Part shown: positions 1,247 through 52,092 of the stretch, piece by piece
Layout of the letters: each line of letters opens with the position of its first letter
Position numbering within the stretch: the stretch's first letter is position 1
Assembly (NCBI GenBank): GCA_017435465.1
Contig: JAFSEX010000005.1
Location: 223,982-287,981 of the forward strand
Length of the DNA stretch: 64,000 nt
Origin: Bacilli bacterium
GTDB taxonomy: Bacteria > Bacillota_I > Bacilli_A > RF39 > UBA660
Direction of reading: 5' to 3'
Notes under the pieces: generated by a model
Seen by the model: only the letters and a program-made list of their open reading frames with translations
What the model was told of the DNA's origin: nothing
Database searches by the model: none
Program-made: the position numbers and the translations under genes

Positions 1247-2875
1247 TTGTTAATGAATATTGGAGATTTAGTACCAAGAAAGGATTATGAATATTATATT
1301 GTTGAAAAACTTTTTGTTAACCCTAAAAAACAAGGAGATATGGATGACTTGGATGATTGGGATGACTATAGCGACTATAAAATAGGTGAAAAAATAATAG
1401 CAGAAAAAAAATATCTTACGCGAGACGTTGGTGGATATGCTGATTCATTTAAAGAATTTTTAAAAAAATATTGTAGAGTTGCAACACTAGAAGAAGAGAA
1501 TAAAATGTATGAAGAAGAGTTTTCTAATGCTCTAGTATTAGATATATATGGCGATAAGAGTTACAATGTTGGTTTTTACTATGTTCCTACGAAAGATGTA
1601 GGTCTTGATGAATATACTCATGAACAAGATTCGTGGGAGAGATGGAAAAAGAAAGAAAAAATATTCAAAAATTTAGGAATAGATTCTGCAACATTTTACG
1701 AAATAGATGATGAGGGAAAATTTATTTATGTTGAGGGACGCAAAGCTAATGATGAATTATTAAAATATTGCAGATTAGCAACGCCAGAAGAGGCAAAAAC
1801 ATTTAATGCAATTGTAGCAGAAAGAAAAAGAATACAACGCGAAAAATATTTAGCAGAAAAACAAGCAGAAGAACAAGAAAAAATAGATAGATATAACAAA
1901 AATAAGAGTGATTCTAATTATTATCCAGGTAGTTGTGGAAACTATAATCAAGTATTAGTAAATAGCGATGGTACACCAGAAAAATCAAAATTATACGATT
2001 TATATACAATAAAACAATTTTATAATGAATTGATAAAATCAGGAAAGTTTGATAAAGAAATTTTAGAAAAAATAATGCTTTATGGTGGTACAGTCCCATA
2101 TATTTTAAGTAATACACAAGAAGAAACAAGAAAATTTGGTGATATTGATATATTTATTCCAATACAAAACATGAAAGTATTTAGAAATGCATTATTGGAT
2201 AAACCATATTTTGAGATGAACTTTGATTCAATGGAATTAACAGAAAAAGCAGGACTTTTAGTTGCGGGTTCCAGATTTGAAAGACCTTGGTTTATGGGAG
2301 ACGATGATGACATAGAAGCATATCGTGAATATGAAAGAATGGTATCAAAATTACAAGATGAAGCCAGAAAAAAAATTGTTTTTCAAGATTATGGATTTAA
2401 AGGTTCTTTGTTTGGAATTAATATCTCTGTATTTCCTATATATCAATGGAACAAAGATAATAAATTAGATATATGTGCTAAAAGTTTTAGAATTGGAAAA
2501 GAAGATGGTGATAGTAAATTCCTTCTTAATACAGTAGTAACTCATAATACACCTATCACATCATTTTCTAAACTTGTTGAAATCTGTGGTGGACAAATTG
2601 GAGCTGCAAACATTGAATATACAATAGCTAGTAAGAAAAGTGCGATAAATCATGGATACATATTAAGACAAGAAAGTGATTTAGCAGATTTACAATTTAT
2701 TGAAGATCATAAATCAATATTAGGAATAAATGACGCTTTAGTAAAACATTATGAAGAAAATATACCAGATTATGGAATAGCTAAAGTATATAGAATAAAA
2801 AGAAATTATGAAGTTTGTGAATATACTCCTGAACAATATAAAAATATAGTAACAAGAAATCACAAACCTTCTTAA
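1247..2875 (+). CDS. Large hypothetical protein with an internal repeat and a possible nucleotidyltransferase-fold motif (GG..x17..GDIDIF)
   Basis: 542-aa ORF with a strong RBS (AAAGGAGG, 8 nt upstream). The motif LYGGTVPYILSNTQEETRKFGDIDIFIP resembles the G[GS]...D-x-D signature of Pol-beta-type NTases, but the spacing is long. Two repeats of YCR(V/L)AT(L/P)EE occur near the N-terminus. Confidence 0.4.
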   Translation: MLMNIGDLVPRKDYEYYIVEKLFVNPKKQGDMDDLDDWDDYSDYKIGEKIIAEKKYLTRDVGGYADSFKEFLKKYCRVATLEEENKMYEEEFSNALVLDIYGDKSYNVGFYYVPTKDVGLDEYTHEQDSWERWKKKEKIFKNLGIDSATFYEIDDEGKFIYVEGRKANDELLKYCRLATPEEAKTFNAIVAERKRIQREKYLAEKQAEEQEKIDRYNKNKSDSNYYPGSCGNYNQVLVNSDGTPEKSKLYDLYTIKQFYNELIKSGKFDKEILEKIMLYGGTVPYILSNTQEETRKFGDIDIFIPIQNMKVFRNALLDKPYFEMNFDSMELTEKAGLLVAGSRFERPWFMGDDDDIEAYREYERMVSKLQDEARKKIVFQDYGFKGSLFGINISVFPIYQWNKDNKLDICAKSFRIGKEDGDSKFLLNTVVTHNTPITSFSKLVEICGGQIGAANIEYTIASKKSAINHGYILRQESDLADLQFIEDHKSILGINDALVKHYEENIPDYGIAKVYRIKRNYEVCEYTPEQYKNIVTRNHKPS

Positions 2876-12352: not shown

Positions 12353-12429
12353 GTCCTGGTAGCTCAGCTGGATAGAGCATGCGCCTTCTAAGCGCACGGT
12401 CAGGGGTTCGAATCCCTTCCAGGACACCA
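12353..12429 (+). tRNA. tRNA-Arg (anticodon TCT)
   Basis: 77-nt cloverleaf: acceptor GTCCTGG/CCAGGAC, D-arm GCTC-AGCTGGATA-GAGC, anticodon stem TGCGC/GCGCA with loop CTTCTAA (anticodon TCT), T-arm with GGTTCGAATCC, 3' CCA encoded. Confidence 0.85.
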
Positions 12430-14078: not shown

Positions 14079-15431
14079 ATGGAGAATGGAAGTGGTAAAA
14101 TGGTAGATAAAATAAATAAAAGAAAAAATATGAGAAATAAAATCATTTTATCAATTCTAGCCCTATTGATAATTTTTGTAACTTTTTTAAGTATGTCATA
14201 TGCATATTTCAGTACATCTGCTATGAGTGAAGAACAAACAGTTACAACAGGAAATTTATCATTAAAATTTGATGATAATACAAGTATAATAAGAAATGAA
14301 AATATATATCCAATATCAAGAAGCCAGATATTAACAGATGCTACAAAAAAAACATTTACTATTATTAATACAAGCGATACTGATATATATACAATTTTAA
14401 TTTTAGAAGAAATGAATCTTCCAGATGAATTAAGGAATGTAGATTTTAGTTGGGCATTATATCAAAATAATGTAATGAAGACAACGGGAACATTTAATAT
14501 ATCAAAAAATTCTGACAAAGTATTTTTAACTAATTTTGAACTATTAAAAGAAGGATTATCAAAAACTTATGATTTATACATTTGGATAGAGGAAAGTGGT
14601 GTGGCTCAAGATTCAATGCAAGGAAAACTTTTTAATGCTACAATTGTTGTAAATGGCCTTGGCACTCTTGGTAAAAATACTGTAGCAACTGTAATAAAAA
14701 GTAAAAGTACTCCAAATACTACATTACCAAATTTTACAACCCCATCAGTTAATAATGGATTATTCCAAACAAATACAAATACTTTAAACAATCAACCAAC
14801 ATATTATTATAGAGGTAATGTTACAAATAATTATTTATCTTTTGCTGGACAATTATGGAGAATAGTTAGAATTAATGAAGACGGTTCAATTAGATTAATT
14901 TTAGAAACAAATATAGGAAGCAAAAAATATAGTAGTAATACAACATGTAATTTAAGTAATCAAACAAATTGTACAACTAACTATCAAATTAGTAATATTA
15001 AAACAATATTAGATAAATGGTACTCTACTACAATTAAAGCTAATTCTAATCTAGATAGCAAAGTTGTAACCGGGAAATTTTGTAATGATACATCAAATAC
15101 TTTTGTTGATAGAAGTGCTAGTCCAACGTTTGATTGTACTAATGTAATAGAGTCAAAAGTTGGAACAATTAGTGCTGATGAAGTTATTTATTCTGGGGCA
15201 CTATATAACTCAGCAAGTAATACAACATATTTAAATAACAATGCATCATTTTATACAATGACATCTAGTTCAAATTCACAAGTCTATATATGGAATAATA
15301 GTAATACATCACTTACAAATGATGCAAATATATTTGATTATTATGATGTTCGACCAGTAATAAATTTAGATTCTACTACAATAATAACTAGTGGAGAAGG
15401 AATAATTAATGATCCTTATATAGTAAATTAA
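14079..15431 (+). CDS. Secreted protein with a TasA/camelysin-like N-terminus (SipW-type signal)
   Basis: Signal/anchor followed by SYAYFSTS...TTGNLSLKFDD resembles the AxFSD...ASGTLDL start of the TasA/CalY family. The long C-terminus is N/T/S-rich. Alternative starts at 14100 or 14130. Confidence 0.4.
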   Translation: MENGSGKMVDKINKRKNMRNKIILSILALLIIFVTFLSMSYAYFSTSAMSEEQTVTTGNLSLKFDDNTSIIRNENIYPISRSQILTDATKKTFTIINTSDTDIYTILILEEMNLPDELRNVDFSWALYQNNVMKTTGTFNISKNSDKVFLTNFELLKEGLSKTYDLYIWIEESGVAQDSMQGKLFNATIVVNGLGTLGKNTVATVIKSKSTPNTTLPNFTTPSVNNGLFQTNTNTLNNQPTYYYRGNVTNNYLSFAGQLWRIVRINEDGSIRLILETNIGSKKYSSNTTCNLSNQTNCTTNYQISNIKTILDKWYSTTIKANSNLDSKVVTGKFCNDTSNTFVDRSASPTFDCTNVIESKVGTISADEVIYSGALYNSASNTTYLNNNASFYTMTSSSNSQVYIWNNSNTSLTNDANIFDYYDVRPVINLDSTTIITSGEGIINDPYIVN

Positions 15432-29763: not shown

Positions 29764-30192
29764 ATGAAAAAGTTTAAACGTTCCCTTCGTGGCTATAATA
29801 CAAAAGAAGTTAATGCTTTTGTAAATGAAGTTGTAAGCCAAGTTGAAATTATGGTTAATCAAATAAAAGAAAAAGATTTAAAAATACAAGCATTAAATGC
29901 AAATCTTTTAAAATATAAAAATATGGAAGAAACTCTAAATAAATCTATAGTTATGGCTCAAGAAACTTCAGAACAAATGAGAAGAATGGCGCGCATTGAA
30001 AGTGAAAATATTATTAGTGATGCAAAGAAAAACGCTAATAAGATTGTAAATGATGCATTAACTAGAGCTTCAAAAGTTGAAGCAGAAACTGCTGTTCTTA
30101 AGAAAAATATAAATATATTTAAAACAAGATTAAAAAATATTATTGAACAACAATTACAAATGGTTGATGATATGGATAATATAGATATTTAA
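29764..30192 (+). CDS. divIVA: DivIVA-domain protein
   Basis: N-terminal FKRSLRGYNTKEVNAFVNEV is the DivIVA motif, followed by a coiled coil. Same order (sepF...divIVA-ileS) as the B. subtilis ylm/divIVA region. Confidence 0.65.
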   Translation: MKKFKRSLRGYNTKEVNAFVNEVVSQVEIMVNQIKEKDLKIQALNANLLKYKNMEETLNKSIVMAQETSEQMRRMARIESENIISDAKKNANKIVNDALTRASKVEAETAVLKKNINIFKTRLKNIIEQQLQMVDDMDNIDI

Positions 30193-30199
30193 AACAAAT

Positions 30200-30413
30200 G
30201 ATAGAGACGGTATTTTAATTTAATTTAAGCGAGTAGGGATTTTGGTGTAAGCCTATAATATAAATTAAAATATAGATCACTCTTGATGTGTCTTTCTGAT
30301 ATTAGGAAAGAACCTTATACTAGGTTACAAGTATCTAAGTGTATGATAATAATCATAAACTAAGGTGGTACCGCGGGAAAATCTCGTCCTTAAATTTTTA
30401 AGGACGTTTTTTT
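30200..30413 (+). ncRNA. T-box riboswitch leader (probably Ile-specific), ending in an intrinsic terminator
   Basis: Conserved T-box sequence AAGGTGGTACCGCGGG at 30362-30377. Terminator CGTCCTTAA/TTAAGGACG plus T7 at 30385-30413. Upstream AGAGA and AGTAGGGA (AG-box) elements. A candidate specifier ATC followed by A is at 30286-30289. Confidence 0.7.
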
Positions 30414-30433
30414 ATATAGTAAAGGAGGTAGTT

Positions 30434-31390
30434 ATGACAATTTTTATAAATATTTTAATACTAATAATTGGATTTGTTTTTCTGATTAAAGGTGCAGATA
30501 TATTTGTTGATGGTGCATCTTCAACAGCAAGAAACTTTAATTTATCTAAAATGTTGATAGGTCTTACCATTGTAGCATTTGGTACAAGTGCGCCAGAATT
30601 TGCAGTATCTTTAAAAGCGATGATTAGTGGAAGCAAAGATATGGTATTAGGAAATGTAATAGGCAGTAATATATTAAATATTTTATTAATTTTAGGAATA
30701 TGTAGTATTATTAATCCATTAAGAGTTAAAAGCAATACTGTAAAAAAAGAATTACCAATAACACTTATGATTACAGTATTACTTGCAGTATTATTTGTAG
30801 ATAATTTATTTGATGTCAATGTGGTAAATCAAATAAGTCGTAATGATGGAATCGCAATATTATTATTCTTCATGATTTTTATTTATTACCTATTTTCAAT
30901 TATGCGAAATAAAGTTGATGAAGATGAAGAAGAACCACCAAAATATTCAATGATAAAATCAATAATTTTTACAATACTAGGAATTGTTGCTGTAATAATA
31001 GGAAGTGAATTAGTTGTAACTAGTGCAACAACACTTGCTAAAAGTTTTGGAGTGAGTGAAAGAATTATATCACTTACAATAGTGGCGTTTGGTACATCTT
31101 TACCTGAACTTGTTACATCTATTATTGCTACAATAAAACGTGAACAAGATATTTCAGTTGGAAATATAATTGGAAGTAATATATTTAATATTGGTATTGT
31201 TTTAGGTTTACCAGTTGCACTATTTGGTGGAATAATTCCTATAGAATTTAGTTATCTAGATATTGTGGGATTAATTGTTTCAGCACTATTATTATTTATA
31301 TTTGCTGGAACAGGATATAAAGTTACTAAAAAAGAAGGTTTAGCAATGCTTGTAACTTTTATAATATATTATACATGTATTTTAATTTAG
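30434..31390 (+). CDS. CaCA-family cation/Ca2+ antiporter (YrbG-like)
   Basis: Two alpha-repeat signatures, FGTSAPEFAVSL and FGTSLPELVTSI. About 10 TM segments. The ORF-track start at 30365 lies inside the T-box, so the ATG at 30434 was used. Confidence 0.7.
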   Translation: MTIFINILILIIGFVFLIKGADIFVDGASSTARNFNLSKMLIGLTIVAFGTSAPEFAVSLKAMISGSKDMVLGNVIGSNILNILLILGICSIINPLRVKSNTVKKELPITLMITVLLAVLFVDNLFDVNVVNQISRNDGIAILLFFMIFIYYLFSIMRNKVDEDEEEPPKYSMIKSIIFTILGIVAVIIGSELVVTSATTLAKSFGVSERIISLTIVAFGTSLPELVTSIIATIKREQDISVGNIIGSNIFNIGIVLGLPVALFGGIIPIEFSYLDIVGLIVSALLLFIFAGTGYKVTKKEGLAMLVTFIIYYTCILI

Positions 31391-35481: not shown

Positions 35482-36864
35482 ATGGTTAAAAATAAAAAAA
35501 GTTTTTTTAACTCAGATTCAATTGGTGTACTACTTTTAGTATCATTGACTGTTTTTGCGGGTTACATGGGGTGTAGTCAAAGATTTTTAAGTGATATACA
35601 AGAAGAAAAAGTAACAACAAATAGTAAAAATTATAATAGAAGTAGTTATAGTGATTATGATTATGATAACGATGATGATGAATACTATAATAATTATGAA
35701 GATTATTATTGGAATTATAATGATTATGATGACTATTATTATGATGATACATATTCTTATAATCAAAATTACGATGATTATGGTTATAGTTATACAGGAT
35801 ATAAGAATTATGATGATGAAGGATATTATGATTATGATTATAACTATTATAGAGACACTAACAAACCATCAATTCGTATTAGTGCATTTAATGTAATTTA
35901 TCAATATGAAAGCTTTGATCCATGGGAAGGTATAAGTGCTAGTCATTCAAAATTTGGAGATGTAACAGATATAATTGAAATTGTTCATAATGATCTAGAT
36001 ATTAATATTCCTGGTCAATATTCAATTGTATACAAAGCATGTAATTATCCTGGTTCTATTTATTGTAGAACATTAACTAGACAAATTACAGTTAAACAAA
36101 AAGAAGATCCAAATTACTATAATACAAAAGCACCCGTATGGGAAAAAGTAAAGGACAAATCTTGTTCAGTAGGAAGTACAAGTTGTAGATCAAATAAAAT
36201 TGCAGAACCAACTGCAACTGATCCATACTCAAAAAGATCACTTGATGTAACTTTAATAGAAGGTAATGTTGATATTTACACACCGGGAACTTATGTTTTA
36301 GTATATTATGCAGAAACAGAAAATGGTATAAGTGGAACAATTACAAGAATAGTAACAATAGAAGATACAAATAACAATTATGACGACGACTATGATGATT
36401 ATTATGATAATGATTATCAACAAAGAAAATATATAGATAATCATTATTCAGAATACTATGATGATGGAACATATCGTGGTACATTAAATCCAGATTACAG
36501 TTATAATCAAATAAGTAAATATATTCAAGATTATAAATGGACTAATAAAGTTTATTATACTTATAAATGTAGTAACTTAAATGGTTATGGAATCAATGGA
36601 TGGGAATATATTTCAACAGATACATCTGATGACCACCCAACTTATGAATATAATATTGGAAATTTTAGTGGTACGTTAGAAAAAGATGATTTTTATTGTG
36701 TTCCAGGTCAAGGTTGTGAAGAAGATGTAAATAGACAACTTGGTACTTGTAGTAATCTTGGTGAAACAAAACAAATTACAAGAACTTGGGTAGGGATTTA
36801 TTCAGGATATGTATATACAAATGAAGAAGAAACATACTCTGGATATGTATATAGATATAGATAG
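35482..36864 (+). CDS. Secreted/lipoprotein-like protein with extreme Tyr/Asp/Asn low-complexity regions and two Ig-like (DUF5011-type) domains
   Basis: Signal peptide ending AGYMGCSQ. Runs such as YDYDNDDDEYYNNYEDYYWNYNDYDDYYYDD. Two segments ending ...PGQYSIVYKA.../...PGTYVLVYYAETENG...RIVTIED match the DUF5011 pattern. Confidence 0.5.
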   Translation: MVKNKKSFFNSDSIGVLLLVSLTVFAGYMGCSQRFLSDIQEEKVTTNSKNYNRSSYSDYDYDNDDDEYYNNYEDYYWNYNDYDDYYYDDTYSYNQNYDDYGYSYTGYKNYDDEGYYDYDYNYYRDTNKPSIRISAFNVIYQYESFDPWEGISASHSKFGDVTDIIEIVHNDLDINIPGQYSIVYKACNYPGSIYCRTLTRQITVKQKEDPNYYNTKAPVWEKVKDKSCSVGSTSCRSNKIAEPTATDPYSKRSLDVTLIEGNVDIYTPGTYVLVYYAETENGISGTITRIVTIEDTNNNYDDDYDDYYDNDYQQRKYIDNHYSEYYDDGTYRGTLNPDYSYNQISKYIQDYKWTNKVYYTYKCSNLNGYGINGWEYISTDTSDDHPTYEYNIGNFSGTLEKDDFYCVPGQGCEEDVNRQLGTCSNLGETKQITRTWVGIYSGYVYTNEEETYSGYVYRYR

Positions 36865-36865
36865 A

Positions 36866-36905
36866 ATTATTCTAAAAACGGAAAGAAAAATTAAAATTTT
36901 TCTTT
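36866..36905 (+). terminator. Terminator after the 35482 gene
   Basis: GGAAAGAAAAA-ttaaaa-TTTTTCTTTCC hairpin followed by T7. Confidence 0.6.
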
Positions 36906-36939
36906 CCATTTTTTTGTATTCCAATTTTTTCCAAATTTC

Positions 36940-37020
36940 TAAAACTGTTGATAGAAAAATCTTGACTCGGGGGGGGAATGTTATATACTTATTATGATAA
37001 TTGTGGATAATTATCAAAAA
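36940..37020 (+). promoter_or_regulatory. Conserved upstream element copy 1: TTGACT, a G8 tract in the spacer, TATACT, and the palindrome GATAATTATC
   Basis: TTGACT 36962-36967, G8 36969-36976, TATACT 36984-36989 (16-nt spacer), palindrome 37006-37015. About 80% identical to 49054-49140. Confidence 0.5.
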
Positions 37021-37115
37021 TTGTCATTTTTATAAATTATTAAAATAAAGGAGTGTGAAGTACAAGATTATAGTATTAAAAATATTGGTTGAATAGTATT
37101 ATAATGGAGGTAAAT

Positions 37116-38366
37116 ATGAGTAAGAAAGTAAAAATAGGATTAATAATAGGAATTATCTTTTGTATTACTATGATTGTTACAATTCTTTTGGTTTCAAATA
37201 ATAAATCATATACTATTAAATTTGATAGTAATGGTGGAACTGCAATTGAAAATCAAATAGTAAAAAAAGGTGATAAAATTGTTAAACCAATAGATCCAAC
37301 AAAAGATGGATATAAATTTGAAGGATGGTATTTATATGGGGATAAATACTATTTTGACAAAGAAGTAACAAAAAGTTTTAAACTAAAAGCAAAATGGATA
37401 AAGCAAGATGATGCAGAAAAAGTAACAATAACATTCGATACTAACGGTGGATCAAAAATAAGCAGTATTGAAATAACAAAAGGTGAAAAATTAAATAAGC
37501 CAGCTGATCCAACAAAAGATGGATATGTCTTTATTGAATGGCTATTAAACAATAATTCATTTAATTTTGATGTAGAAATAGTATCAGATATTAAATTAGT
37601 AGCAAGCTTTAAAAAATTAGAAGAAGATACATTTACAGTAACATTTGATTCAAAAGGTGGAAGTAGTGTTGCAACTCAAACAGTAAAAAAGGATGAAAAA
37701 TCATTAAAACCAGCTGATCCAACACGTGATGGATATAAATTTAATGGATGGTATTTAAATAATAAAAAATATGATTTTAATACAAAAATTACTGGCAATA
37801 TTACATTAATTGCAAAATGGACTTCAACACAAACAAATAATCAAACACAAAATAATACTCAAACTAATACGCAAAAACCTGCTGAAACTCCACAAACACC
37901 ACAAGTTGTAAAATATAATGTTGTTTTTCATAGTGATGGTGGAAGTGCTGTATCAACGCAAGTTGTAACTGCAGGGGCAAAAGCAACTAAACCAGAAAAT
38001 CCTACAAGAACAGGTTATAAATTTGTGGGTTGGATGTTAAATGGTGGAGCATATAATTTTAATACACCAGTAAATAATAACATAACACTTACTGCAGCTT
38101 GGGAGCTAATTCCTGTACCAGATGTATATACAGTTAAAATGGGATTAATTGATGGAGATGAAACATCAACAGAAAGAAAAGTAATTGTTTATAAAAATAA
38201 TATTGAAATAACTGCAAGTCAACTAATTAATCAAGATGGAAGAGTAATTGGTGGATATGTTTCATCACTAGGAGCAATAAGAGTAAATAAATCACAATAT
38301 GAAAGTGCAACAAGTTTGAAAGTAAAACTAAATGACGGAACAACAGTGAGTGCAAATAAGGGGTAG
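37116..38366 (+). CDS. Membrane-anchored surface protein with four Listeria-Bacteroides (Flg_new/InlB B-type) repeats
   Basis: Four repeats of the form (F/V)xSNGGxx(I/V)....V..G.K...P.DPT(K/R)DGY.F.GWY. N-terminal TM anchor. Confidence 0.65.
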   Translation: MSKKVKIGLIIGIIFCITMIVTILLVSNNKSYTIKFDSNGGTAIENQIVKKGDKIVKPIDPTKDGYKFEGWYLYGDKYYFDKEVTKSFKLKAKWIKQDDAEKVTITFDTNGGSKISSIEITKGEKLNKPADPTKDGYVFIEWLLNNNSFNFDVEIVSDIKLVASFKKLEEDTFTVTFDSKGGSSVATQTVKKDEKSLKPADPTRDGYKFNGWYLNNKKYDFNTKITGNITLIAKWTSTQTNNQTQNNTQTNTQKPAETPQTPQVVKYNVVFHSDGGSAVSTQVVTAGAKATKPENPTRTGYKFVGWMLNGGAYNFNTPVNNNITLTAAWELIPVPDVYTVKMGLIDGDETSTERKVIVYKNNIEITASQLINQDGRVIGGYVSSLGAIRVNKSQYESATSLKVKLNDGTTVSANKG

Positions 38367-38380
38367 AAAAGGAGTAAAAA

Positions 38381-40516
38381 ATGAAAAATAAAATAATAAA
38401 TATAGCAATAATTATATTATCAATTTTCTTTGTTAGTAGTACTGATGTTTTTGCATTAAATCCAGTTTCAGTATCAGTTCATGATATTGAAGCAGATACA
38501 TATGTTATTGGAACACACATGTTTGATACAAATAGAACATATTTATCAACTGAAGATATCATGTGGGCTGCAAGAACAATAGATACTGATAGTAAAGATG
38601 ACATGATAATCTATTATAAAGATTTTAATAATGAGTGGATTAATGGTAGAACAGGAGAAGAAATTACTGTTCCTTCAACATTTGAAATTGAAGAAATAAA
38701 TGGAAGCAAGGCAGATTCTGTTAGTATATTTTACATAGAAGATAATTCTAATTATTCAATAATTGATCAATATTTATATACAAAAAATGATTTAACAATT
38801 ATTCCAGACAGTGATAAAAATTATACAATTAATTTTAATGCATATAATTTTGAAAACAAAACATATGATTTTAATTTTGTATGTAAATCGGATAACGAAA
38901 CAAATCTTGATTTAGGTACTATTCCAACAACTATTGAAATACTTAATGGGGAATTTGCATTACCAATAACTGTTAGTCAAAATGCAAAAGAAGGATATTA
39001 TTATTGTGAAATGACTTTAGGTGATAATAAATATAATGATTTTGGTATTAACATAGGACAGTCTGAACATATTTTTGAAGCAGAAGCATTAGAAATATAT
39101 ACTAATGATGAAAATTATAATGAATTTGCTGAAACTTTTTATCCAAAAGAATACAATACATTTGAAGTAGAAGAAGAGTCATCTTGGAGTTATGATCAAT
39201 TATTCTTTTTCCTTAATCCATTTATTGATGAAGGCGTATATAATGTAGAAATATCAGCAACTAAAAATGGAAAATCAGTAGAATTAAAAGATGTTCCAAC
39301 AAATATTAATATTGACTATTCAAAAGTAAATGGATTTTCAATAGATTTTGTTGATAAAATTACTGAAGGTAACTATACAATTGAAATAACTATTGATAAT
39401 ATTACAGAATATTTTTATTTAAAAGTTAAAAAACCAGTTAAAGTAGAATTAGAAACGTTATATAATAAAACTGATGGCTACTATATTGAAAATGGTAACA
39501 TAATAACAAACGAAAAAAATAAAACTTATACTGCAACCTTCAATACAACTAATCTTTCTGATGGAACCTATAATATTAAAAATTATATTGAAGCAATGAG
39601 TGTTGGGTTATCACAATCATTAAAAAGTGATTATAAAGTAGAGGTTAAAGATAATAAATTTACATTTGATTTTGTAATACCTAAAACTCTACCAGAATGT
39701 GATAGTTATTATATTGATCTAAAATTAATGGATGAAAATAATAATGAAATTAGTGAATTTATAATAAATCCTTTTTCAATTAACGGTAACAAATCAACAG
39801 GATTAAAATTTACAAGTTCTGAAGAATGTGGAAATCCTTTTGGTACTGTGTGCTTATCTGGAAGAAATGAAACAACTGGTGGTGCAATAATAGAATTGAA
39901 TTTTGCAACTCAAAAATGGGTAAGTGGTTTTGAAATTTATAGTTCAGATACTGAAGACGGACAATATACATTACTTGCTGACATTAATGATGGGTTCTAT
40001 CATGCAGAATTAGAAAATGAACAATCATGGGGAAATATAGAAGTTGAGGTTCCATTACAAGGAACAAAATATTTCAAAGTTATTCCATACATATTAGATG
40101 ATAACGATAATAAAATCTATAAAGAAGAATCAAATATTATAGATTATACTGATGAAATATATTCTTGGATTGGATTTAAACGAAATCCATATGGAAGTGA
40201 TATAATTGTTTCATATGATAATGAACATAATGCGACAATAACTATTGAATCATCAATATCAAAGAATGATTATATTGATGGATATATTATTTCAGAATCA
40301 GAAGATAATGGTATTAGTGGAACGTTAATAAAAAAATATGAAATTGACAAAAATATTACTTTTAATGAATATAATATGTCTAAAGAACAAGTTCAAGTTA
40401 CAATTCCTAACGGTGAAACAAGATTTTATATAATAACACCTTATATAAATATTAATGGTGAAGAAACAATTTTAGATTCACCTTATAGTATTAGATATGA
40501 AAACATTAATCAATAA
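38381..40516 (+). CDS. Large secreted hypothetical protein (signal peptide; beta-rich)
   Basis: 711 aa with an N-terminal signal IINIAIIILSIFFVSSTDVFA. Sits 14 bp after the previous gene, so probably an operon. Confidence 0.5.
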   Translation: MKNKIINIAIIILSIFFVSSTDVFALNPVSVSVHDIEADTYVIGTHMFDTNRTYLSTEDIMWAARTIDTDSKDDMIIYYKDFNNEWINGRTGEEITVPSTFEIEEINGSKADSVSIFYIEDNSNYSIIDQYLYTKNDLTIIPDSDKNYTINFNAYNFENKTYDFNFVCKSDNETNLDLGTIPTTIEILNGEFALPITVSQNAKEGYYYCEMTLGDNKYNDFGINIGQSEHIFEAEALEIYTNDENYNEFAETFYPKEYNTFEVEEESSWSYDQLFFFLNPFIDEGVYNVEISATKNGKSVELKDVPTNINIDYSKVNGFSIDFVDKITEGNYTIEITIDNITEYFYLKVKKPVKVELETLYNKTDGYYIENGNIITNEKNKTYTATFNTTNLSDGTYNIKNYIEAMSVGLSQSLKSDYKVEVKDNKFTFDFVIPKTLPECDSYYIDLKLMDENNNEISEFIINPFSINGNKSTGLKFTSSEECGNPFGTVCLSGRNETTGGAIIELNFATQKWVSGFEIYSSDTEDGQYTLLADINDGFYHAELENEQSWGNIEVEVPLQGTKYFKVIPYILDDNDNKIYKEESNIIDYTDEIYSWIGFKRNPYGSDIIVSYDNEHNATITIESSISKNDYIDGYIISESEDNGISGTLIKKYEIDKNITFNEYNMSKEQVQVTIPNGETRFYIITPYININGEETILDSPYSIRYENINQ

Positions 40517-47280: not shown

Positions 47281-48276
47281 ATGGATAAATATCAACCACC
47301 TTTTGAAATATCTAATAAGATGTTAGATTTAGTTGGAAGTATAATGGAAAAAATAGGACAATTAAACAATTATAGCGATTTAAATAAAATGCCTATTTTA
47401 AGAAGAAATAATAGGATTAAATCAATTCATTCTTCATTAGCAATTGAAGCAAATTCATTAACTTTTAATCAAGTAAAAGATGTTATTAACGGTAAGCTAG
47501 TTATTGGTGAACAAAAAGAAATACAAGAAGTTAAAAATGCTTATAAAGCGTATGAAATGATAAAAGAAGTAAATCCTTATAAGATTAAAGATTTATTAAA
47601 TATTCATAAAACTTTAACTTATTTAACTGTTGAAGAATCTGGAGTATTTAGAAATGGTGCAGAAGGAGTTTTTGATGAAAATAACAATTGTATTTTTGTT
47701 GCTCCTAAACCTGAGTTTGTAGAAGGATTAATGAATGATTTATTTTCTTGGATGAAAGAAAATAAAGATAATATACATCCATTAATATTATCATCAATAT
47801 TCCATTATGAGTTTGTATTTATACATCCTTTTAGTGATGGTAATGGAAGAACTGCTAGGTTGTGGCAAAATATAATATTATCTAATTGGAAAGAAATTTT
47901 TGAATATGTTCCGATTGAATCACAAATTAAAAAATATCAACAAGAATATTATAAATCAATAGATACTTGTAATAAAAATGGAAACTCAAAAGTATTTATA
48001 GAGTTTATGTTAACTATGATAGATGAAGTATTGGAAGATTTAATAAGTAGTACTCAAAATGAAATAACACATATTAATGCTTATGTTAATAAGTTATTAA
48101 ATGTAATGGATTATAATATACCAATGAGTTCTAATGAAATAATGGAAAAGTTAGGATTAAAATCAAAAGAATCATTTAGAGAAAATTATTTAAATCCAGC
48201 ATTAGAAAATGGTATTATTAAAATGACTCTACCAGATAAACCTACCAGCAAAAATCAAATGTATTATAGAGATTAG
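47281..48276 (+). CDS. fic: Fic family protein (AMPylase-type Fido domain)
   Basis: Canonical Fic motif HPFSDGNGRTARL. N-terminal helix SLAIEANSL resembles the [ST]xxxE[GN] inhibitory motif. Confidence 0.8.
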   Translation: MDKYQPPFEISNKMLDLVGSIMEKIGQLNNYSDLNKMPILRRNNRIKSIHSSLAIEANSLTFNQVKDVINGKLVIGEQKEIQEVKNAYKAYEMIKEVNPYKIKDLLNIHKTLTYLTVEESGVFRNGAEGVFDENNNCIFVAPKPEFVEGLMNDLFSWMKENKDNIHPLILSSIFHYEFVFIHPFSDGNGRTARLWQNIILSNWKEIFEYVPIESQIKKYQQEYYKSIDTCNKNGNSKVFIEFMLTMIDEVLEDLISSTQNEITHINAYVNKLLNVMDYNIPMSSNEIMEKLGLKSKESFRENYLNPALENGIIKMTLPDKPTSKNQMYYRD

Positions 48277-48374
48277 TTATTTACTATTACACTACAAAAC
48301 TTAAATTTTGTAGTCTGATTGTAGGTAAATATATAAATATGTGATTTTCAGTATACAAGGAAGTAGTGAATTAA

Positions 48375-48839
48375 ATGAAAATAATAAATATAGCAAGTAA
48401 TAATTCAGTTTGGAGAGGCCAAGATTATTATAAAGAAAAGAAAATTAAAAAGTATAAAAAGATAAGTGATTATGAATATGAAGCTATTGCTTTAGGCAGT
48501 GATAAAAACAATTATAATGTTTTTCTAGATATAGAACATCCTAGAAAATCAAAATGTGATTGTTCTCACGCAAAAGACAAAAGAATAATATGTAAACATA
48601 TTGTTGCACTTTATTTTACAATATTTCCTAAAGAAGTTGATACTTTTCTAAAAGAAGTAGAAGAAGCACAAAATGAATATGAAGATTACAAAGGTAAACT
48701 ATATAATAAAACTTTAAAATATATTAATAAAATGTCTAAAAAAGAGTTAGAAGAATCTTTAGTTTATATATTAAATATCTCTCCAGATTGGTTTTATGAC
48801 AAATTTGTTAGAGAGTATGTTGGTTTTGATGTAGATTAA
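48375..48839 (+). CDS. SWIM zinc-finger domain protein
   Basis: CDCSHAKDKRIICKHIVALYF fits the SWIM pattern C-x-C-x(9)-C-x-H. Confidence 0.5.
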   Translation: MKIINIASNNSVWRGQDYYKEKKIKKYKKISDYEYEAIALGSDKNNYNVFLDIEHPRKSKCDCSHAKDKRIICKHIVALYFTIFPKEVDTFLKEVEEAQNEYEDYKGKLYNKTLKYINKMSKKELEESLVYILNISPDWFYDKFVREYVGFDVD

Positions 48840-49053
48840 AAAAGTTTTGCAATCATAAGTATGCAAAACTTTTTGTATGTTAAGATTATTATAGTTAATT
48901 AATCAATAATTTTTTCAAAATTAAATAATTCTGAATCAAAAAATTCTTTTAATGTTATATTAAATATCTTACATATTTTATAAATATTTGTTGAACTTGG
49001 ATTGTCTACTTTTACTTTATCACTACAGTTGTCTAATGTAAAGTATAACTCTA

Positions 49054-49145
49054 TTGACACCTGTTGAAAACTTTTTCTTGACTTGGGGGAATATTATATA
49101 CTAAACTTGAAAATTGTGGATAATTATTAATTAATTATCAAAAAA
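49054..49145 (+). promoter_or_regulatory. Conserved upstream element copy 2: TTGACT, G5 tract, TATACT (13-nt spacer), GATAATTATT
   Basis: TTGACT 49078-49083, G5 49085-49089, TATACT 49097-49102. Paralogous to 36940-37020; the only length difference is the G-tract. Confidence 0.5.
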
Positions 49146-49160
49146 GGAGTGAAAAAATTT

Positions 49161-50024
49161 ATGGAAAAGAAAAATACAGGGTTAATAGTTTTAGTTGTAG
49201 TTTTAAGTATTGCAATATTAGGACTTGGTGGATTTATTGTTTATGATAAGGTATTATTTAAAGATTCTAATATTGAAAATGTAGATAAAAATGAATCTTA
49301 TATGGAACAAAATAAAATTGTAAAAAAGACTGAAAAATTGATAAGTAACATTCCATTAATTCATAAATATGAAGAAAAAATCACTGATTTTAACGCTATT
49401 GATAATTATGATAAAATAACGCTTGCTGTTGATTATATAGCACGAAATGAAAATTCAAAAATTTATAATTATAGCGATAAAATAAGTGTAGAAAAAATTA
49501 ATAATACTTTAACAAAAATATTTAATGATAAAATTTCTTTTGATAATGAAAATATTATGTGTTGTTATTCTGATGAAGTTTTAGAACACTGTCATATAAC
49601 ATACGATGAACAAAATAACCAATATATTAGTGGTACAGGAGAACCACATGGATATTCAGAAACATATGCTTTTTATAATAAATTAATAAATTTTGAAAAA
49701 GTTAATAATACTTATGAATTGACTTATATTTATTTGTTTGATGAAATAGGGGATAGTCCTAGACCTATAGGGTCAGAGTTATATACTACATATGTAAACA
49801 AAAATAACCCATATATTGAATTTTCACAAAGTGATTATGATAAAATGTATGATATATATAATAAAACAGGTAAAACTGAAATAGAACAAATAAAAGAAGT
49901 AGTTGCAGAAAAAATAGAAAATCTTGATAATTATAATGAATTCCCAAAATATAAATATATAGTAGAATTGGATAATAACGATAATCCAAAACTAGTAGGA
50001 TATGAATTTATAGATGTTAAATAA
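49161..50024 (+). CDS. Hypothetical membrane-anchored secreted protein
   Basis: N-terminal TM LIVLVVVLSIAILGLGGFIVY. Start set at the ATG 9 nt after the AGGAGTG RBS; the ORF-track start is GTG at 49149. Confidence 0.5.
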   Translation: MEKKNTGLIVLVVVLSIAILGLGGFIVYDKVLFKDSNIENVDKNESYMEQNKIVKKTEKLISNIPLIHKYEEKITDFNAIDNYDKITLAVDYIARNENSKIYNYSDKISVEKINNTLTKIFNDKISFDNENIMCCYSDEVLEHCHITYDEQNNQYISGTGEPHGYSETYAFYNKLINFEKVNNTYELTYIYLFDEIGDSPRPIGSELYTTYVNKNNPYIEFSQSDYDKMYDIYNKTGKTEIEQIKEVVAEKIENLDNYNEFPKYKYIVELDNNDNPKLVGYEFIDVK

Positions 50025-50125: not shown

Positions 50126-51409
50126 ATGGATGAGTTTGTAGAGGGTAAAAATTATAAATTAAGTATCATACATCAAGACCACTATGGTAGAGGTATCGCA
50201 AAGTTTAATAGATATCCAATCTTTATACCATATACATTACCGGGAGAATTAATAGAAGTTAAAATAACAAAATCAAAGAAAAACTTTGCGGAAGGACTAC
50301 CAGAAAAATTAATAACAGTTTCTAATAATAGAGTTAAAATTCCATGTGAAAATTTTTATGTTTGTGGTGGTTGTGATATTATGCATCAAAAATATGAAGA
50401 TGGACTTAAAATGAAAAAAAGAAATTTATTAGAAATTTTATATAAATTTGGTAAGATTGATGTGACAAAACTAAAAATAAATAATGTTGTTAAGTGTGAT
50501 GATATTTTTAATTATAGAAATAAAGTAACGTTTCATGTTAAAGATAATAAAATTGGTTTTTATAAAAATGAAACCAATGAATTAATTAATATTGATGAAT
50601 GTAAAATAATTAATGATAAATTTAATAAAATTTTAAAATATATAAAAAAACATTTATCTGATAGCGGAATAACTGAAATCGTTATGAGATATGGTACATA
50701 TACTGATGAATTAATGATTATATTTAAATCTAATAAAAATATTGATGAACAATTTATTAGAAATTTAGTTAAATTAAATAAGAGTGTTAAAAGTATTTAT
50801 TTACTTAAAAATTCAAAATATAAATTAATTTATGGGGAAAAATATATTCATGAAAATTTGTTAGATAAAACATTTAGAATTAGTCCTGATTCATTTTTTC
50901 AAGTTAATACTAAACAAGCGGAGAAAATGTTTTCTAAAGTTTTAAAATATATTAATAGTGATGATAAAAATATTTTAGATTTATATTGTGGAATAGGTGT
51001 AATTAGTTTAATTATTAATAATAGTAGAAAAAATATTATTGGGGTTGATATAGTTAAAAATGCGATAGAAGATGCGAATGTGAATAAAGTTTTGAATAAT
51101 GCTTCTAAAGTGGAATTTGTCTGTGAAAATGTATCAAATATATTGCCAGTAATAAAAAGGGCAAAAAAAGATTTAGATGTTATAATTTTAGATCCACCAA
51201 GAACTGGTATTGATAAAAATAGTGTTAATATAATCAATGAATTATTGCCAAAAAAATTGATATATATTTCATGTAATCCAGTTACTTTAGCACGTGATTT
51301 AAAAACATTAAAAGAAAATTATAATGTTGAAGAAATAACTCCGTATGATATGTTTCCTATAACTCATCATATTGAAACTGTTACTTTATTAACTATAAAG
51401 GAGAATTAA
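50126..51409 (+). CDS. rlmD: 23S rRNA (uracil-C5)-methyltransferase, RumA/RlmD family
   Basis: TRAM domain N-terminus, Fe-S cysteines (CENFYVCGGCDIMH), SAM-MTase DLYCGIG and ILDPPRTG motifs. Confidence 0.8.
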   Translation: MDEFVEGKNYKLSIIHQDHYGRGIAKFNRYPIFIPYTLPGELIEVKITKSKKNFAEGLPEKLITVSNNRVKIPCENFYVCGGCDIMHQKYEDGLKMKKRNLLEILYKFGKIDVTKLKINNVVKCDDIFNYRNKVTFHVKDNKIGFYKNETNELINIDECKIINDKFNKILKYIKKHLSDSGITEIVMRYGTYTDELMIIFKSNKNIDEQFIRNLVKLNKSVKSIYLLKNSKYKLIYGEKYIHENLLDKTFRISPDSFFQVNTKQAEKMFSKVLKYINSDDKNILDLYCGIGVISLIINNSRKNIIGVDIVKNAIEDANVNKVLNNASKVEFVCENVSNILPVIKRAKKDLDVIILDPPRTGIDKNSVNIINELLPKKLIYISCNPVTLARDLKTLKENYNVEEITPYDMFPITHHIETVTLLTIKEN

Positions 51410-52092
51410 TGGAAGAATTAGTAAATATTGAATTAAAGAAATATTTAAAGAATAATATACTAAAAGAATATGAACTTAATGATTCAGGTCATAATATAGA
51501 TCATATAAATTTTGTTTTAGAACGTGCATATGAACTAAGCAAAATATATAATATTAATTATGACATGTTATATACTATTGTTTGTTTCCATGACATAGCA
51601 TGTCATATAAATAGAGAAGAACATGAAATTTTATCTGCTAAAAGATTATATAATGATGAATTTTTAAATAAATATTTCAATGAAAAAGATATGTTAATAA
51701 TGAAAGAAGCGGTAGAAGACCATAGAGCATCATTAGAATATATTCCAAGAAATATATATGGAAAAATATTATCATCAGCTGATAGAAAAATTGGTGTTGA
51801 TAATTATTTGCATGCGTCTATAGGATTTAGTATGAAAAAAAATCCTGAAAAAACTTTTGAAGAATTAATTGAAGATTCATATCAATTTGCTATAAAAAAG
51901 TTTGGAAAAGATGGATATGCAGTAAAAAAGATGTATGTTAAAGATAAAAAATATGAAGAATTTTTAAAAGAAATTCAATATTTAATCGATAATAAAAAGG
52001 AATTTATTAAAAAAGCACAAAGTGTAATAAATAAAATAATAAACTTTATTGGTAATATAATATTTTTATGTTATTATATTAATGGAGGGTGA
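51409..52092 (+). CDS. HD-domain phosphohydrolase
   Basis: HNIDHINFVLERA...CFHDIACH provide the H...HD metal-binding motif. 227 aa. Confidence 0.55.
   Translation: MEELVNIELKKYLKNNILKEYELNDSGHNIDHINFVLERAYELSKIYNINYDMLYTIVCFHDIACHINREEHEILSAKRLYNDEFLNKYFNEKDMLIMKEAVEDHRASLEYIPRNIYGKILSSADRKIGVDNYLHASIGFSMKKNPEKTFEELIEDSYQFAIKKFGKDGYAVKKMYVKDKKYEEFLKEIQYLIDNKKEFIKKAQSVINKIINFIGNIIFLCYYINGG

What the first reader, a model, noticed from the sequence alone, without database searches (positions are those of the whole stretch)
36940..37120. Paralogous promoter elements upstream of surface-protein genes differ only by a poly-G tract in the -35/-10 spacer (G8 vs G5), suggesting phase variation
About 85 nt upstream of the Listeria-Bacteroides-repeat surface protein operon (37116-40516) is about 80% identical to the region upstream of another membrane-anchored exported protein (49161-50024). 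Both contain CTGTTGA...TCTTGACT-(G)n-AAT(G/A)TTATATACT...ATTGTGGATAATTAT. In copy 1 the G8 tract gives a 16-nt TTGACT-TATACT spacer, which is near optimal. In copy 2 the G5 tract gives a 13-nt spacer, which is non-functional. A homopolymeric G run of 8 is very unusual in a roughly 25% GC genome. Slipped-strand change in tract length would switch expression ON and OFF, as with the classical phase-variable surface-antigen promoters of Neisseria, Haemophilus and Mycoplasma. The shared palindrome GATAATTATC downstream may also bind a common regulator.
Basis: partly seen in the sequence, partly recalled or inferred. Interest (0 to 1): 0.8.

Follow-up and report, generated by a model that had tools for sequence, protein, structure and literature searches.

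The report
Poly-G tract inside shared surface-protein promoter
Two surface-protein genes of an uncultured ruminant-gut bacterium share a copied promoter whose only length-variable part is a run of G's that sets the spacing between the two promoter boxes; this is the classic design of a slippage-driven expression switch, but the available assemblies do not show it switching.

Summary
Window 36945-37014 and 49061-49127 are 79% identical. Both read CTGTTGA-N10-TTGACT-N-Gn-AAT(G/A)TTA-TATACT-...-ATTGTGGATAATTAT, with G8 (16-nt spacer) and G5 (13-nt spacer). The downstream genes are not homologous to each other.

The organism is a ruminant-gut "Bacilli bacterium" MAG (locus tags IJO32_). Related contigs gave six more copies, counting orthologues, in at least two further species. 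Every copy has an uninterrupted G tract that starts 1 nt after the -35 box and ends 7-8 nt before the -10 box. Tract lengths are 5, 5, 6, 7, 8, 8, 8, 8 and spacers are 13-17 nt. All G/C runs of 6 or more in 103 kb of clade DNA lie in this spacer.

The element is the conserved 5' cassette of a multigene family of N-terminally anchored proteins (MEKKNTGLIV...). Part of it also sits in front of the Flg_new operon.

Evidence on switching is mixed:
- **For:** one orthologue pair differs, G8 versus A+G5.
- **Against:** copy 1 is G8 in three lineages (100%, 96% and 84.5% nt identity). Copy 2 is G5 in every assembly, and G5 is too short to slip often.

Verdict: a slippage-prone, spacing-setting promoter tract and a candidate contingency locus. 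It is a new member of a known kind. ON/OFF switching is unproven.

The parts
36880..36917 (+). Intrinsic terminator of the upstream gene (35482-36864). It shows that a new transcription unit must start after it.
   Evidence: a 12-pair stem at 36880-36907 followed by a T run, against 0.1 expected in shuffles. Strain L140 has two changes in the loop only.
36945..36961 (+). Copy 1 upstream block CTGTTGATAGAAAAATC. It is A/T-rich and looks like an UP element. The UP-element role is an inference.
   Evidence: Identical or nearly identical in L140, L118, L143 and L123b. Copy 2 and L141 carry the alternative block TGAAAACTTTTTC.
36962..36967 (+). Copy 1 -35 hexamer, TTGACT.
   Evidence: Conserved in L140 and L141.
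36969..36976 (+). Copy 1 G8 tract inside the 16-nt spacer (36968-36983).
   Evidence: G8 is also found in L001, L002, L140 and L141.
36984..36989 (+). Copy 1 -10 hexamer, TATACT. An alternative extended -10, TGtTATATA at 36979-36987, is not conserved in L141.
36995..37016 (+). Copy 1 downstream box TGATAATTG-TGGA-TAATTATCA. It contains ATTGTGGATAATTAT and the palindrome GATAATTATC. It lies at about +1 to +20 of the predicted transcript and could be a 5'-terminal hairpin or an operator.
   Evidence: 100% conserved in L140 and L141. RNAalifold predicts a 9-12 bp hairpin, with no informative covariation.
37116..40516 (+). Downstream operon. A Flg_new (Listeria-Bacteroides repeat) protein with an N-terminal membrane anchor lies at 37116-38366. 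A 711-aa protein with a signal peptide lies at 38381-40516.
   Evidence: Flg_new E=8.5e-64. (N-termini).
49061..49077 (+). Copy 2 upstream block, CTGTTGAAAACTTTTTC.
49078..49083 (+). Copy 2 -35 hexamer, TTGACT.
49085..49089 (+). Copy 2 G5 tract inside the 13-nt spacer (49084-49096).
   Evidence: The same length is found in L003, L004 and L005.
49097..49102 (+). Copy 2 -10 hexamer, TATACT. An alternative weak -10, TAAACT at 49102-49107, would give an 18-nt spacer.
49113..49139 (+). Copy 2 downstream box, ATTGTGGATAATTAT followed by TAATTAATTATC. This is a split inverted repeat, GATAATTA-N5-TAATTATC.
49161..50024 (+). Gene IJO32_01710 (287 aa). It belongs to the MEKKNTGLIV... family of N-terminally anchored proteins.

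Best explanation
Both sites are copies of one sigmaA (sigma-70-type) promoter cassette.

The cassette is the conserved 5' region of a multigene family of N-terminally membrane-anchored proteins (MEKKNTGLIV...). In full it consists of:
1. an A/T-rich hairpin with a T run;
2. an A/T-rich block, TGTTGATAGAAAAAT;
3. the -35 box, TTGAYT;
4. one base;
5. an uninterrupted G tract;
6. 7-8 bases;
7. the -10 box, TATAMT;
8. the ribosome-binding region, GGAGTGGATAA;
9. the ATG.

Copy 2 (49061-49127) heads one family member. Copy 1 (36945-37016) is the promoter part of the cassette placed in front of the unrelated Flg_new surface-protein operon.

The G tract is the only part of the cassette that changes in length. 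Because it lies wholly within the spacer, its length sets the -35/-10 distance: 17 nt in one copy, 16 in four, 14 in two and 13 in one. That distance in turn sets promoter strength. Length changes arise by slipped-strand mispairing.

What is shown: the anatomy, the conservation of the tract, and the fact that all indels fall inside the tract.

What is inferred:
- that these hexamers are the working promoter;
- that 16-17 nt is the expressed state and 13-14 nt is off or very weak;
- that slippage gives heritable, reversible tuning or switching of individual surface-protein genes.

My probabilities are about 0.85 that this is the promoter, about 0.7 that tract length controls its strength, and about 0.3 that switching is frequent enough to count as true phase variation. 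The stated confidence refers to the combined 'slippage-prone, spacing-setting promoter tract' reading, not to proven ON/OFF switching.
For: - Both hexamers and the tract are at the stated coordinates.
- A terminator lies directly upstream of copy 1, and no other conserved promoter lies before the gene.
- The downstream genes are not homologous, so the shared DNA is regulatory.
- Six more copies or orthologues exist. In every one the tract begins 1 nt after -35 and ends 7-8 nt before -10:
  - L118: G8, spacer 16.
  - L143: A+G5, spacer 14.
  - L123a: G7, spacer 16.
  - L123b: G6, spacer 14.
  - L140: G8, spacer 16.
  - L141: G8 plus an extra A, spacer 17.
- The tract stays uninterrupted in species 2, although the hexamers and flanks there have diverged (CTGACC...TATAAT).
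- All G/C runs of 6 or more in 103 kb of clade DNA are in this spacer. G8 is expected 0.006 times per window.
- The orthologue pair L118/L143 (92% nt, 95% aa identity) differs by a net 2 nt inside the tract.
- In 112 unrelated natural occurrences of CTTGACT...TATACT, the 17-nt spacer is about 20-fold enriched over background. Spacing therefore matters for these hexamers.
- The downstream genes encode anchored or secreted proteins.
- The same design is experimentally established for T. pallidum tp0126 and N. meningitidis porA (PMC7864442), and for M. hyorhinis vlp and M. mycoides Vmm (PMC10502178).
Against: - No length heterogeneity is seen where it could be looked for.
  - Copy 1 is G8 in the window, L001 and L002 (all 100% identical, so one clone), in L140 (96% nt) and in L141 (84.5% nt).
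  - Copy 2 is G5 in four sources.
  - L123 and L124 are both G7.
- G5 and G6 are short for frequent slippage.
- Copy 2's gene is intact and identical across samples despite a 13-nt spacer. It is probably transcribed some other way, so the -35/-10 spacing may matter less than assumed.
- Most copies sit at 16 nt, not at the 17-nt natural optimum.
- No transcription start site, read-level or expression data are available.
- Whether the genome has mismatch repair is unknown.
- Other members of the protein family lack the G tract entirely: P0022, P0007 and P0062.
Confidence: 0.55

Rival explanations
1. The G tract is a fixed cis-element. It could be a recognition or structural motif in the spacer for a regulator, or for the polymerase itself, and it is kept for its sequence rather than its mutability. 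The promoters would then form a small co-regulated set (a regulon) of surface-protein genes. The length differences would be tolerated or compensated, not used as a switch.
For: - A pure G run of 5 or more is kept in all eight copies, even where the flanks diverged.
- G8 is unchanged across three lineages of copy 1, down to 84.5% nt identity.
- In L123a a shorter tract (G7) is accompanied by an 8-nt instead of a 7-nt right flank, which keeps the spacer at 16 nt. In L141 the spacer gained an A, not a G.
- Further shared blocks that could be operators flank the promoter: TGTTGATAG upstream and TGTGGATAA downstream.
Against: - The position of the tract's 3' end relative to -35, and of its 5' end relative to -10, shifts by up to 3 nt between copies. 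That is hard to reconcile with a rigid protein-DNA contact.
- No candidate regulator gene is linked in the window.
- The downstream box is absent as a separate element in the c3 and species-2 copies, where it is the ribosome-binding region.
- TGTGGATAA-like 9-mers are not enriched in the window (31 versus 27 expected).
- I know of no sigma or regulator consensus that fits. SigB, SigH and SigF were checked by eye, and their -35 partners are absent.
Confidence: 0.2
2. The tract is a neutral passenger. An ancestral 5' cassette happened to contain a G run and was copied along with the gene family. The run has since drifted in length by occasional slippage. Copies with 13-14-nt spacers are decayed promoters, and their genes are read from other starts. 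On this reading the tract has no adaptive role.
For: - The cassette plainly spreads by duplication or gene conversion. It has the same 5' region as the paralogues, and L141's copy-1 orthologue carries the copy-2-type upstream block.
- L143 combines a shortened, interrupted tract with a weakened -35, TTAATT, which looks like decay.
- Copy 2 has an alternative -10, TAAACT, at 18 nt.
- Other family members work without any G tract.
Against: - Uninterrupted G runs persist in species 2, where the neighbouring promoter bases have changed heavily.
- The only G/C runs of 6 or more in 103 kb of 19-27% GC DNA are these.
- G8 is kept over 15% nucleotide divergence at copy 1, even though homopolymers mutate far faster than single bases. 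This indicates selection on length.
Confidence: 0.2
3. The conserved sequence works at the RNA level, as a leader or riboswitch-like element or a small ORF transcribed from a promoter further upstream, rather than as a promoter.
For: - The 5' leader of copy 1 is well conserved between species and can form hairpins.
- A short TTG-started frame spans the tract, and the 3-nt difference between G8 and G5 keeps it in frame. This is read directly from the sequence.
Against: - No Rfam family matches the region: none at gathering threshold over the whole window, and none at E<=10 in the copy 1 region (36850-37200), apart from weak hits on the terminator.
- Copy 1 lies directly after a terminator, with no room for an upstream promoter.
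- The short frame has no ribosome-binding site. It is lost in L141 (the extra A shifts the frame) and in L123b (no start codon).
- The predicted pairs show almost no covariation.
Confidence: 0.05

Closest known systems
Treponema pallidum tp0126 (OmpW homologue) promoter poly-G, and Neisseria meningitidis porA promoter poly-G
   Same: A homopolymeric G tract lies between the -35 and -10 boxes of a sigma-70-type promoter of a surface-protein gene. Tract length sets the spacing, and expression is best at 17 nt (as described in PMC7864442).
   Different: - In those systems length heterogeneity within isolates and length-dependent reporter activity have been measured. Here neither has been.
- Tracts here are shorter, 5-8. 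Only tracts of 8 or more were selected for study in T. pallidum (PMC7864442).
- The host here is a low-GC (24.5%) uncultured gut Firmicute, not a pathogen.
- Here the tract-bearing promoter is a copied cassette shared by several genes.
Mycoplasma hyorhinis vlp genes (poly-A tract in the promoter) and M. mycoides Vmm (TA repeats in the promoter spacer)
   Same: - A multigene family of surface proteins has a conserved 5' region (promoter plus N-terminal targeting sequence) and divergent mature parts.
- Each gene has its own simple repeat in the promoter, so each could switch independently (PMC10502178; family features).
   Different: - The tract is poly-G rather than poly-A or TA.
- The proteins have an uncleaved-looking N-terminal membrane anchor without a lipobox cysteine, so they are not lipoproteins.
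- The organisms have cell-wall genes. MurT/GatD lie next to one copy in L123.
- The genes are scattered, not clustered.
- Switching has not been shown.
Ordinary constitutive sigmaA promoters (TTGACT-17-TATACT)
   Same: The hexamers are the same. 112 unrelated genomes carry CTTGACT...AATNTTATATACT, mostly with a 17-nt spacer.
   Different: None of those 112 has a G run in the spacer or the flanking blocks. The copies here sit at 13-17 nt, mostly 16.

Membership tests
Promoter-spacer homopolymer contingency loci (porA / tp0126 / vlp type) | An uninterrupted homopolymer lies between the -35 and -10 hexamers of a sigma-70-type promoter. | tested here: met
   The same holds in all 8 copies or orthologues. 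The hexamers are predicted, not mapped.
Promoter-spacer homopolymer contingency loci (porA / tp0126 / vlp type) | Length differences are confined to the tract and change the spacing in single-base steps. | tested here: met
   Left flank is always 1 nt and right flank 7-8 nt. Tract lengths are 5-8 and spacers 13-17 nt. The orthologue pair L118/L143 differs by a net 2 nt inside the tract.
Promoter-spacer homopolymer contingency loci (porA / tp0126 / vlp type) | The tract is long enough for frequent slippage (about 8 or more in characterised systems). | tested here: inconclusive
   Copy 1 is G8, which is borderline. Copy 2 is G5, which is too short. The threshold is taken from PMC7864442.
Promoter-spacer homopolymer contingency loci (porA / tp0126 / vlp type) | Tract length varies within a population or between closely related strains. 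| tested here: inconclusive
   - Assembly consensus only.
- Copy 1 is G8 in three lineages.
- Copy 2 is G5 in four sources.
- L123 and L124 are both G7.
- L118 (G8) differs from L143 (A+G5).
- Read-level data are not available with these tools.
Promoter-spacer homopolymer contingency loci (porA / tp0126 / vlp type) | Expression switches ON and OFF with tract length. | not testable with these tools
   This needs reporter fusions or transcript and start-site data. The only indirect support is the natural spacer preference for 17 nt.
Promoter-spacer homopolymer contingency loci (porA / tp0126 / vlp type) | The controlled genes encode surface-exposed proteins. | tested here: met
   The Flg_new protein has an N-terminal anchor. 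The 711-aa protein has a signal peptide. The MEKKNTGLIV family has an N-terminal anchor. Surface location is predicted, not shown.
Vlp-like variable surface protein multigene family | Several paralogues share a conserved promoter and N-terminal targeting region, while the mature regions diverge. | tested here: met
   - IJO32_01710, _05680 and _06995 share the first ~31 residues, with 97% identity over the shared N-terminal stretch between P0001 and P0006.
- The promoter cassette is shared by the first two.
Vlp-like variable surface protein multigene family | A lipoprotein signal peptide with a lipobox cysteine. | tested here: not met
   The N-termini read MEKKNTGLIVLVVVLSIAILGLGGFIVYDK..., with no cysteine after the hydrophobic stretch.
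DnaA-box-regulated promoter | DnaA boxes (TTATCCACA, read on the other strand as TGTGGATAA) are clustered or enriched at the promoter. | tested here: not met
   - Each window copy has one perfect box.
- Matches with up to one mismatch number 31 against 27 expected in the window.
- In the other copies the same bases are the ribosome-binding region, GGAGTGGATAA.
Known cis-regulatory RNA (Rfam) | A match to a curated covariance model. | tested here: not met
   The whole window gives only a T-box and a tRNA, both elsewhere. At E<=10 the copy 1 region (36850-37200) gives only three weak hits, all on the terminator. The copy 2 region was covered only by the gathering-threshold scan.

The most novel reading that the evidence does not exclude
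An uncultured, cell-walled, low-GC Bacilli lineage of the ruminant gut runs a Vlp-like system. A dispersed multigene family of anchored surface proteins, plus a co-opted Flg_new operon, each sits behind its own copy of a poly-G promoter cassette. Individual cells would then stochastically and reversibly express different combinations of surface proteins. This would be a contingency-locus strategy, so far documented mainly in pathogens and wall-less mycoplasmas, operating in a commensal Firmicute.
Probability: 0.25. Interest if true: 0.6.

Novelty: new member of a known kind. Interest (0 to 1): 0.4.

Why it matters
If the tracts do switch, this would extend promoter-spacer homopolymer phase variation to uncultured commensal gut Firmicutes. 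That mechanism has been characterised in Neisseria, Treponema and Mycoplasma.

It would also give a simple sequence signature, the cassette plus a G run of 6 or more in a 25% GC genome, for finding variable surface antigens in metagenome-assembled genomes. Such loci matter for phage and host immune evasion, and for interpreting strain heterogeneity in metagenomes.

If the tracts do not switch, the finding is still a clear case of a promoter cassette that was copied between unrelated surface-protein genes and is tuned by spacer length.

Tried and rejected
1. **Genome-contig scan.** I used the broad pattern CTTGACTN{1,16}AATNTTATATACT.
2. **JGI metagenome scan.** TGTTGATAGAAAAATNTYGAYT gave one unrelated hit. 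The viral contig scan gave none. The plasmid collection had no match.
3. **DnaA-box reading of TGTGGATAA.** Rejected, because the boxes are not enriched and the same bases are the ribosome-binding region in other copies.
4. **Alternative sigma readings.** I compared the SigB GGGWAT, SigH GAAT and SigF/G -10 motifs by eye. The required -35 partners are absent at the right distance, and the GAAT motif is not kept in species 2.
5. **Rex, CcpA (cre), CtsR, CodY and Spo0A operator consensus sequences.** Compared by eye, with no convincing match.
6. **RNA element or leader peptide.** No Rfam hit, no covariation, and the small frame is not conserved.
7. **Is the G-tract promoter universal in the MEKKNTGLIV family?** No. 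P0007 (10 loci), P0062 and P0022 lack it, and so does the more distant Flg_new orthologue in L142.
8. **nhmmer profile of the 8 copies.** A search of all 1.05 Mb of held DNA found no further copies.
9. **Mismatch-repair genes.** None is present in the window, so their status is unknown.
Full report
**1. The observation**

- **Copy 1:** CTGTTGATAGAAAAATC (36945-36961), TTGACT (36962-36967), C, G8 (36969-36976), AATGTTA, TATACT (36984-36989).
- **Copy 2:** CTGTTGAAAACTTTTTC (49061-49077), TTGACT (49078-49083), T, G5 (49085-49089), AATATTA, TATACT (49097-49102).
- **Downstream box:** both copies continue, after 10-11 bases, with ATTGTGGATAATTAT (37000-37014 and 49113-49127).

The spacers are 16 and 13 nt. 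The 70-nt cores share 55 identical positions, 79%.

This is more than chance would give. TTGACTNGGGGG occurs nowhere else in the window, against 0.10 expected. A G or C run of 8 or more is expected 0.006 times in a window of this composition. The proteins encoded downstream are unrelated, so the similarity belongs to the non-coding DNA itself.

The copies also differ in the block just upstream of -35 and between -10 and the box. The perfect palindrome GATAATTATC is present only in copy 1.

**2. Context**

Copy 1 lies 38 nt after a clear intrinsic terminator of the preceding gene (36880-36907 plus T run). It lies 127 nt before the ATG of a two-gene unit:
- a Flg_new (Listeria-Bacteroides repeat) protein with an N-terminal membrane anchor (37116-38366);
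- a 711-aa protein with a signal peptide (38381-40516).

Copy 2 lies 59 nt before a 287-aa protein with no Pfam domain (49161-50024). The surrounding genes are chromosomal housekeeping genes such as ileS, pyk, polC and a tRNA methyltransferase. No known RNA family matches either region at Rfam gathering thresholds, and a permissive search of the copy 1 region adds only weak hits on the terminator.

The organism is a metagenome-assembled 'Bacilli bacterium' from ruminant gut samples, with locus tags IJO32_ and 24.5% GC.

**3. The element is a family, and it is the 5' cassette of a gene family**

The 287-aa protein begins MEKKNTGLIVLVVVLSIAILGLGGFIVYDKVL. Dozens of proteins from uncultured genomes share this ~31-residue anchor, followed by unrelated N/D-rich linkers and C-terminal parts. 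At least two paralogues are in the same MAG, IJO32_05680 and IJO32_06995.

Fetching the DNA around relatives gave six more copies or orthologues of the promoter:

| Copy | Source and downstream gene | -35 | Tract | Right flank | -10 | Spacer |
|---|---|---|---|---|---|---|
| c1 | window, Flg_new operon | TTGACT | C + G8 | AATGTTA | TATACT | 16 |
| c2 | window, IJO32_01710 | TTGACT | T + G5 | AATATTA | TATACT | 13 |
| L118 | same genome, IJO32_05680 | TTGATT | C + G8 | AATATTA | TATAAT | 16 |
| L143 | orthologue of L118, 95% aa, 92% nt | TTAATT | C + A + G5 | AATATTA | TATAAT | 14 |
| L123a | another species, 47%-identical relative of the 287-aa protein | CTGACC | A + G7 | ATAATTTT | TATAAT | 16 |
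| L123b | same contig, 72-aa MEKKNIGLI... ORF | TCGACT | C + G6 | TAAATGA | TATATT | 14 |
| L140 | copy-1 orthologue, 96% nt | TTGACT | C + G8 | as copy 1 | TATACT | 16 |
| L141 | copy-1 orthologue, 84.5% nt, 72% aa | TTGACT | C + G8 | AAATATTA | TATACT | 17 |

The multiple alignment shows a larger shared unit in the family genes:
1. an A/T-rich hairpin plus T run (…TGTAAAGTTTTT);
2. the block TGTTGATAGAAAAAT;
3. the -35 box;
4. the G tract;
5. the -10 box;
6. AAGGAGTGGATAA (ribosome-binding region);
7. ATG GAA AAG AAA AAT…

The 'downstream box' of the two window copies (TTGTGGATAATTAT) aligns with that ribosome-binding region. Copy 1 is therefore the promoter part of the family cassette placed in front of an unrelated operon.

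L141's copy-1 orthologue carries the copy-2-type upstream block (TGAAAACTTTTTC). This suggests exchange between cassettes.

Other family members have ordinary promoters without a G run: IJO32_06995, P0007 in ten loci, and P0062. So does a more distant Flg_new orthologue. The G-tract cassette is thus restricted to a narrow clade.

**4. What the G tract does: evidence for a spacing-setting, slippage-prone element**

In every copy the tract starts exactly one base after the -35 hexamer and ends 7-8 bases before the -10 hexamer. All length differences between copies are therefore inside the tract, which is the signature of slippage rather than substitution.

The run stays uninterrupted even in species 2, where the hexamers and flanks have changed. 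In 103 kb of DNA from this clade, the only G or C runs of 6 or more are these spacer tracts.

My too-broad genome scan gave an unplanned calibration. Among 112 unrelated genomes carrying CTTGACT…AATNTTATATACT:
- 65 have a 17-nt spacer;
- 5 have 16 nt;
- 7 have 18 nt;
- 1 to 6 have each other observed length.

Spacing is therefore under strong natural selection for these hexamers. 13-14 nt is at background level, and 16 nt is sub-optimal rather than near optimal.

The design matches experimentally characterised cases. These are the tp0126 promoter poly-G of Treponema pallidum and porA of Neisseria meningitidis (PMC7864442). They also include the promoter poly-A of Mycoplasma hyorhinis vlp genes and the spacer TA repeats of M. 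mycoides Vmm (PMC10502178).

**5. Evidence against frequent switching**

The other assemblies of the window strain (L001, L002) are 100% identical to the window over 6-7 kb. They add nothing beyond showing the same consensus.

The informative comparisons are as follows.
- **Copy 1:** G8 in a strain with 4% nucleotide divergence, which has seven to eight substitutions in the same intergenic region but none in the 72-nt core. It is also G8 in a species with 15% divergence.
- **Copy 2:** G5 in L003, L004 and L005, which differ from the window at a few other sites.
- **L123 and L124:** both G7.
- **L118 versus L143:** the only orthologue pair that differs. There the shorter, interrupted tract comes with a weakened -35 box, which could equally be promoter decay.

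G5 and G6 are shorter than the tracts treated as variable in known systems. The copy-2 gene is intact and identical across samples despite its 13-nt spacer, so it is probably transcribed anyway. An alternative -10, TAAACT, lies at 18 nt.

Consensus assemblies cannot reveal minority tract lengths. The decisive test is therefore still open.

**6. Rival readings**

- **Fixed cis-element for a regulator, or a structural signal.** This fits the constancy of G8 at copy 1 and the apparent compensation in L123a and L141. It is hard to square with a 3-nt range in tract length at fixed flanks, and no regulator or known consensus fits. The DnaA-box look of TGTGGATAA is not supported.
- **Neutral passenger of a duplicated cassette.** This fits the decay-like L143 and the family members that lack the tract. 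It does not fit the persistence of pure G runs in a 25% GC genome, nor the conservation of G8 over 15% divergence.
- **RNA-level role.** This is unlikely.

**7. Verdict**

The finding is a real, conserved sigmaA-type promoter cassette. It is shared by unrelated surface-protein genes and carries a G tract that sets the -35/-10 spacing and has changed length by slippage during evolution.

It works like, and has the anatomy of, the porA / tp0126 / vlp class of contingency promoters. Membership in that class in the strict sense, meaning reversible high-frequency ON/OFF switching, has not been demonstrated. I put it at about 0.3.

I classify it as a new member of a known kind, of moderate interest. 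The main value is that it would be an instance in an uncultured commensal Firmicute, tied to a Vlp-like dispersed gene family.

Noticed in passing
window 49161-49260; proteins P0001-P0066: A large family of proteins from uncultured low-GC genomes shares an almost invariant ~31-residue N-terminal anchor, MEKKNTGLIVLVV.LSL.V.GLGG[FY]IVYDK. It is followed by N/D-rich linkers and unrelated C-terminal parts, with no Pfam domain. At least three paralogues lie in the source MAG: IJO32_01710, _05680 and _06995.
   Followed up: partly
window 48896-49057, minus strand: A 53-codon GTG-started frame lies directly upstream of copy 2 and diverges from it. It looks like the C-terminal half of an XRE/Cro-type HTH protein, but only weak sub-threshold HTH_26/HTH_3 hits were found. 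In the distant orthologous locus L142 an intact divergent HTH_3 gene sits at the equivalent place upstream of the Flg_new operon.
   Followed up: partly
window 36990-37115; L140 1359-1484; L141 43-166: The ~120-nt leader of the Flg_new operon is about 85% conserved between species whose proteins are only 72% identical. It includes a 5'-terminal hairpin (36995-37016) and an internal SD-like AAGGAGTG (about 37050). No covariation was seen and no Rfam family matches.
   Followed up: partly
L141 1-20 versus window 49064-49083: The copy-1 orthologue in L141 carries the copy-2-type upstream block TGAAAACTTTTTCTTGACT instead of TGATAGAAAAATCTTGACT. Two Logan contigs (L005, L141) both begin inside this block. 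This suggests gene conversion between cassettes and a repeat-induced assembly break.
   Followed up: no
L006-L117 (unrelated genomes): 112 occurrences of CTTGACT...AATNTTATATACT come from many phyla. 65 have exactly a 17-nt spacer, and several sit in front of tRNA genes or short leaders. This is a natural illustration of the spacer optimum.
   Followed up: yes
window 52008-52031 versus L003: The only differences between the window and three other assemblies in this 7-kb stretch are clustered in an A-rich segment at the 3' end of ORF 51409-52092. They are indels plus substitutions and change the C-terminus (227 versus 208 aa).
   Followed up: no
window 30189-30394: A T-box leader (107 bits, above the Rfam gathering score) lies upstream of ORF 30365-31390. 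A tRNA lies at 12353-12426.
   Followed up: no
window 47281-48839: A Fic/DOC-family gene and a SWIM zinc-finger gene lie between polC and copy 2. Together with the HTH remnant they may be a small inserted island.
   Followed up: no
L123 2195-2260: A partial cassette lacks -35 and the G run (cTTATCCACAAAATTATTGATAGAAGAT). In species 2 a TTATCCAYAAAA motif precedes the TGATAGAA block at two sites.
   Followed up: no
window 1247-2875, 14079-15431, 19346-21034, 27310-29115: Four large ORFs (450-601 aa) have no Pfam match at E<=1e-5. At least one, 14079-15431, has an N-terminal hydrophobic anchor.
   Followed up: no
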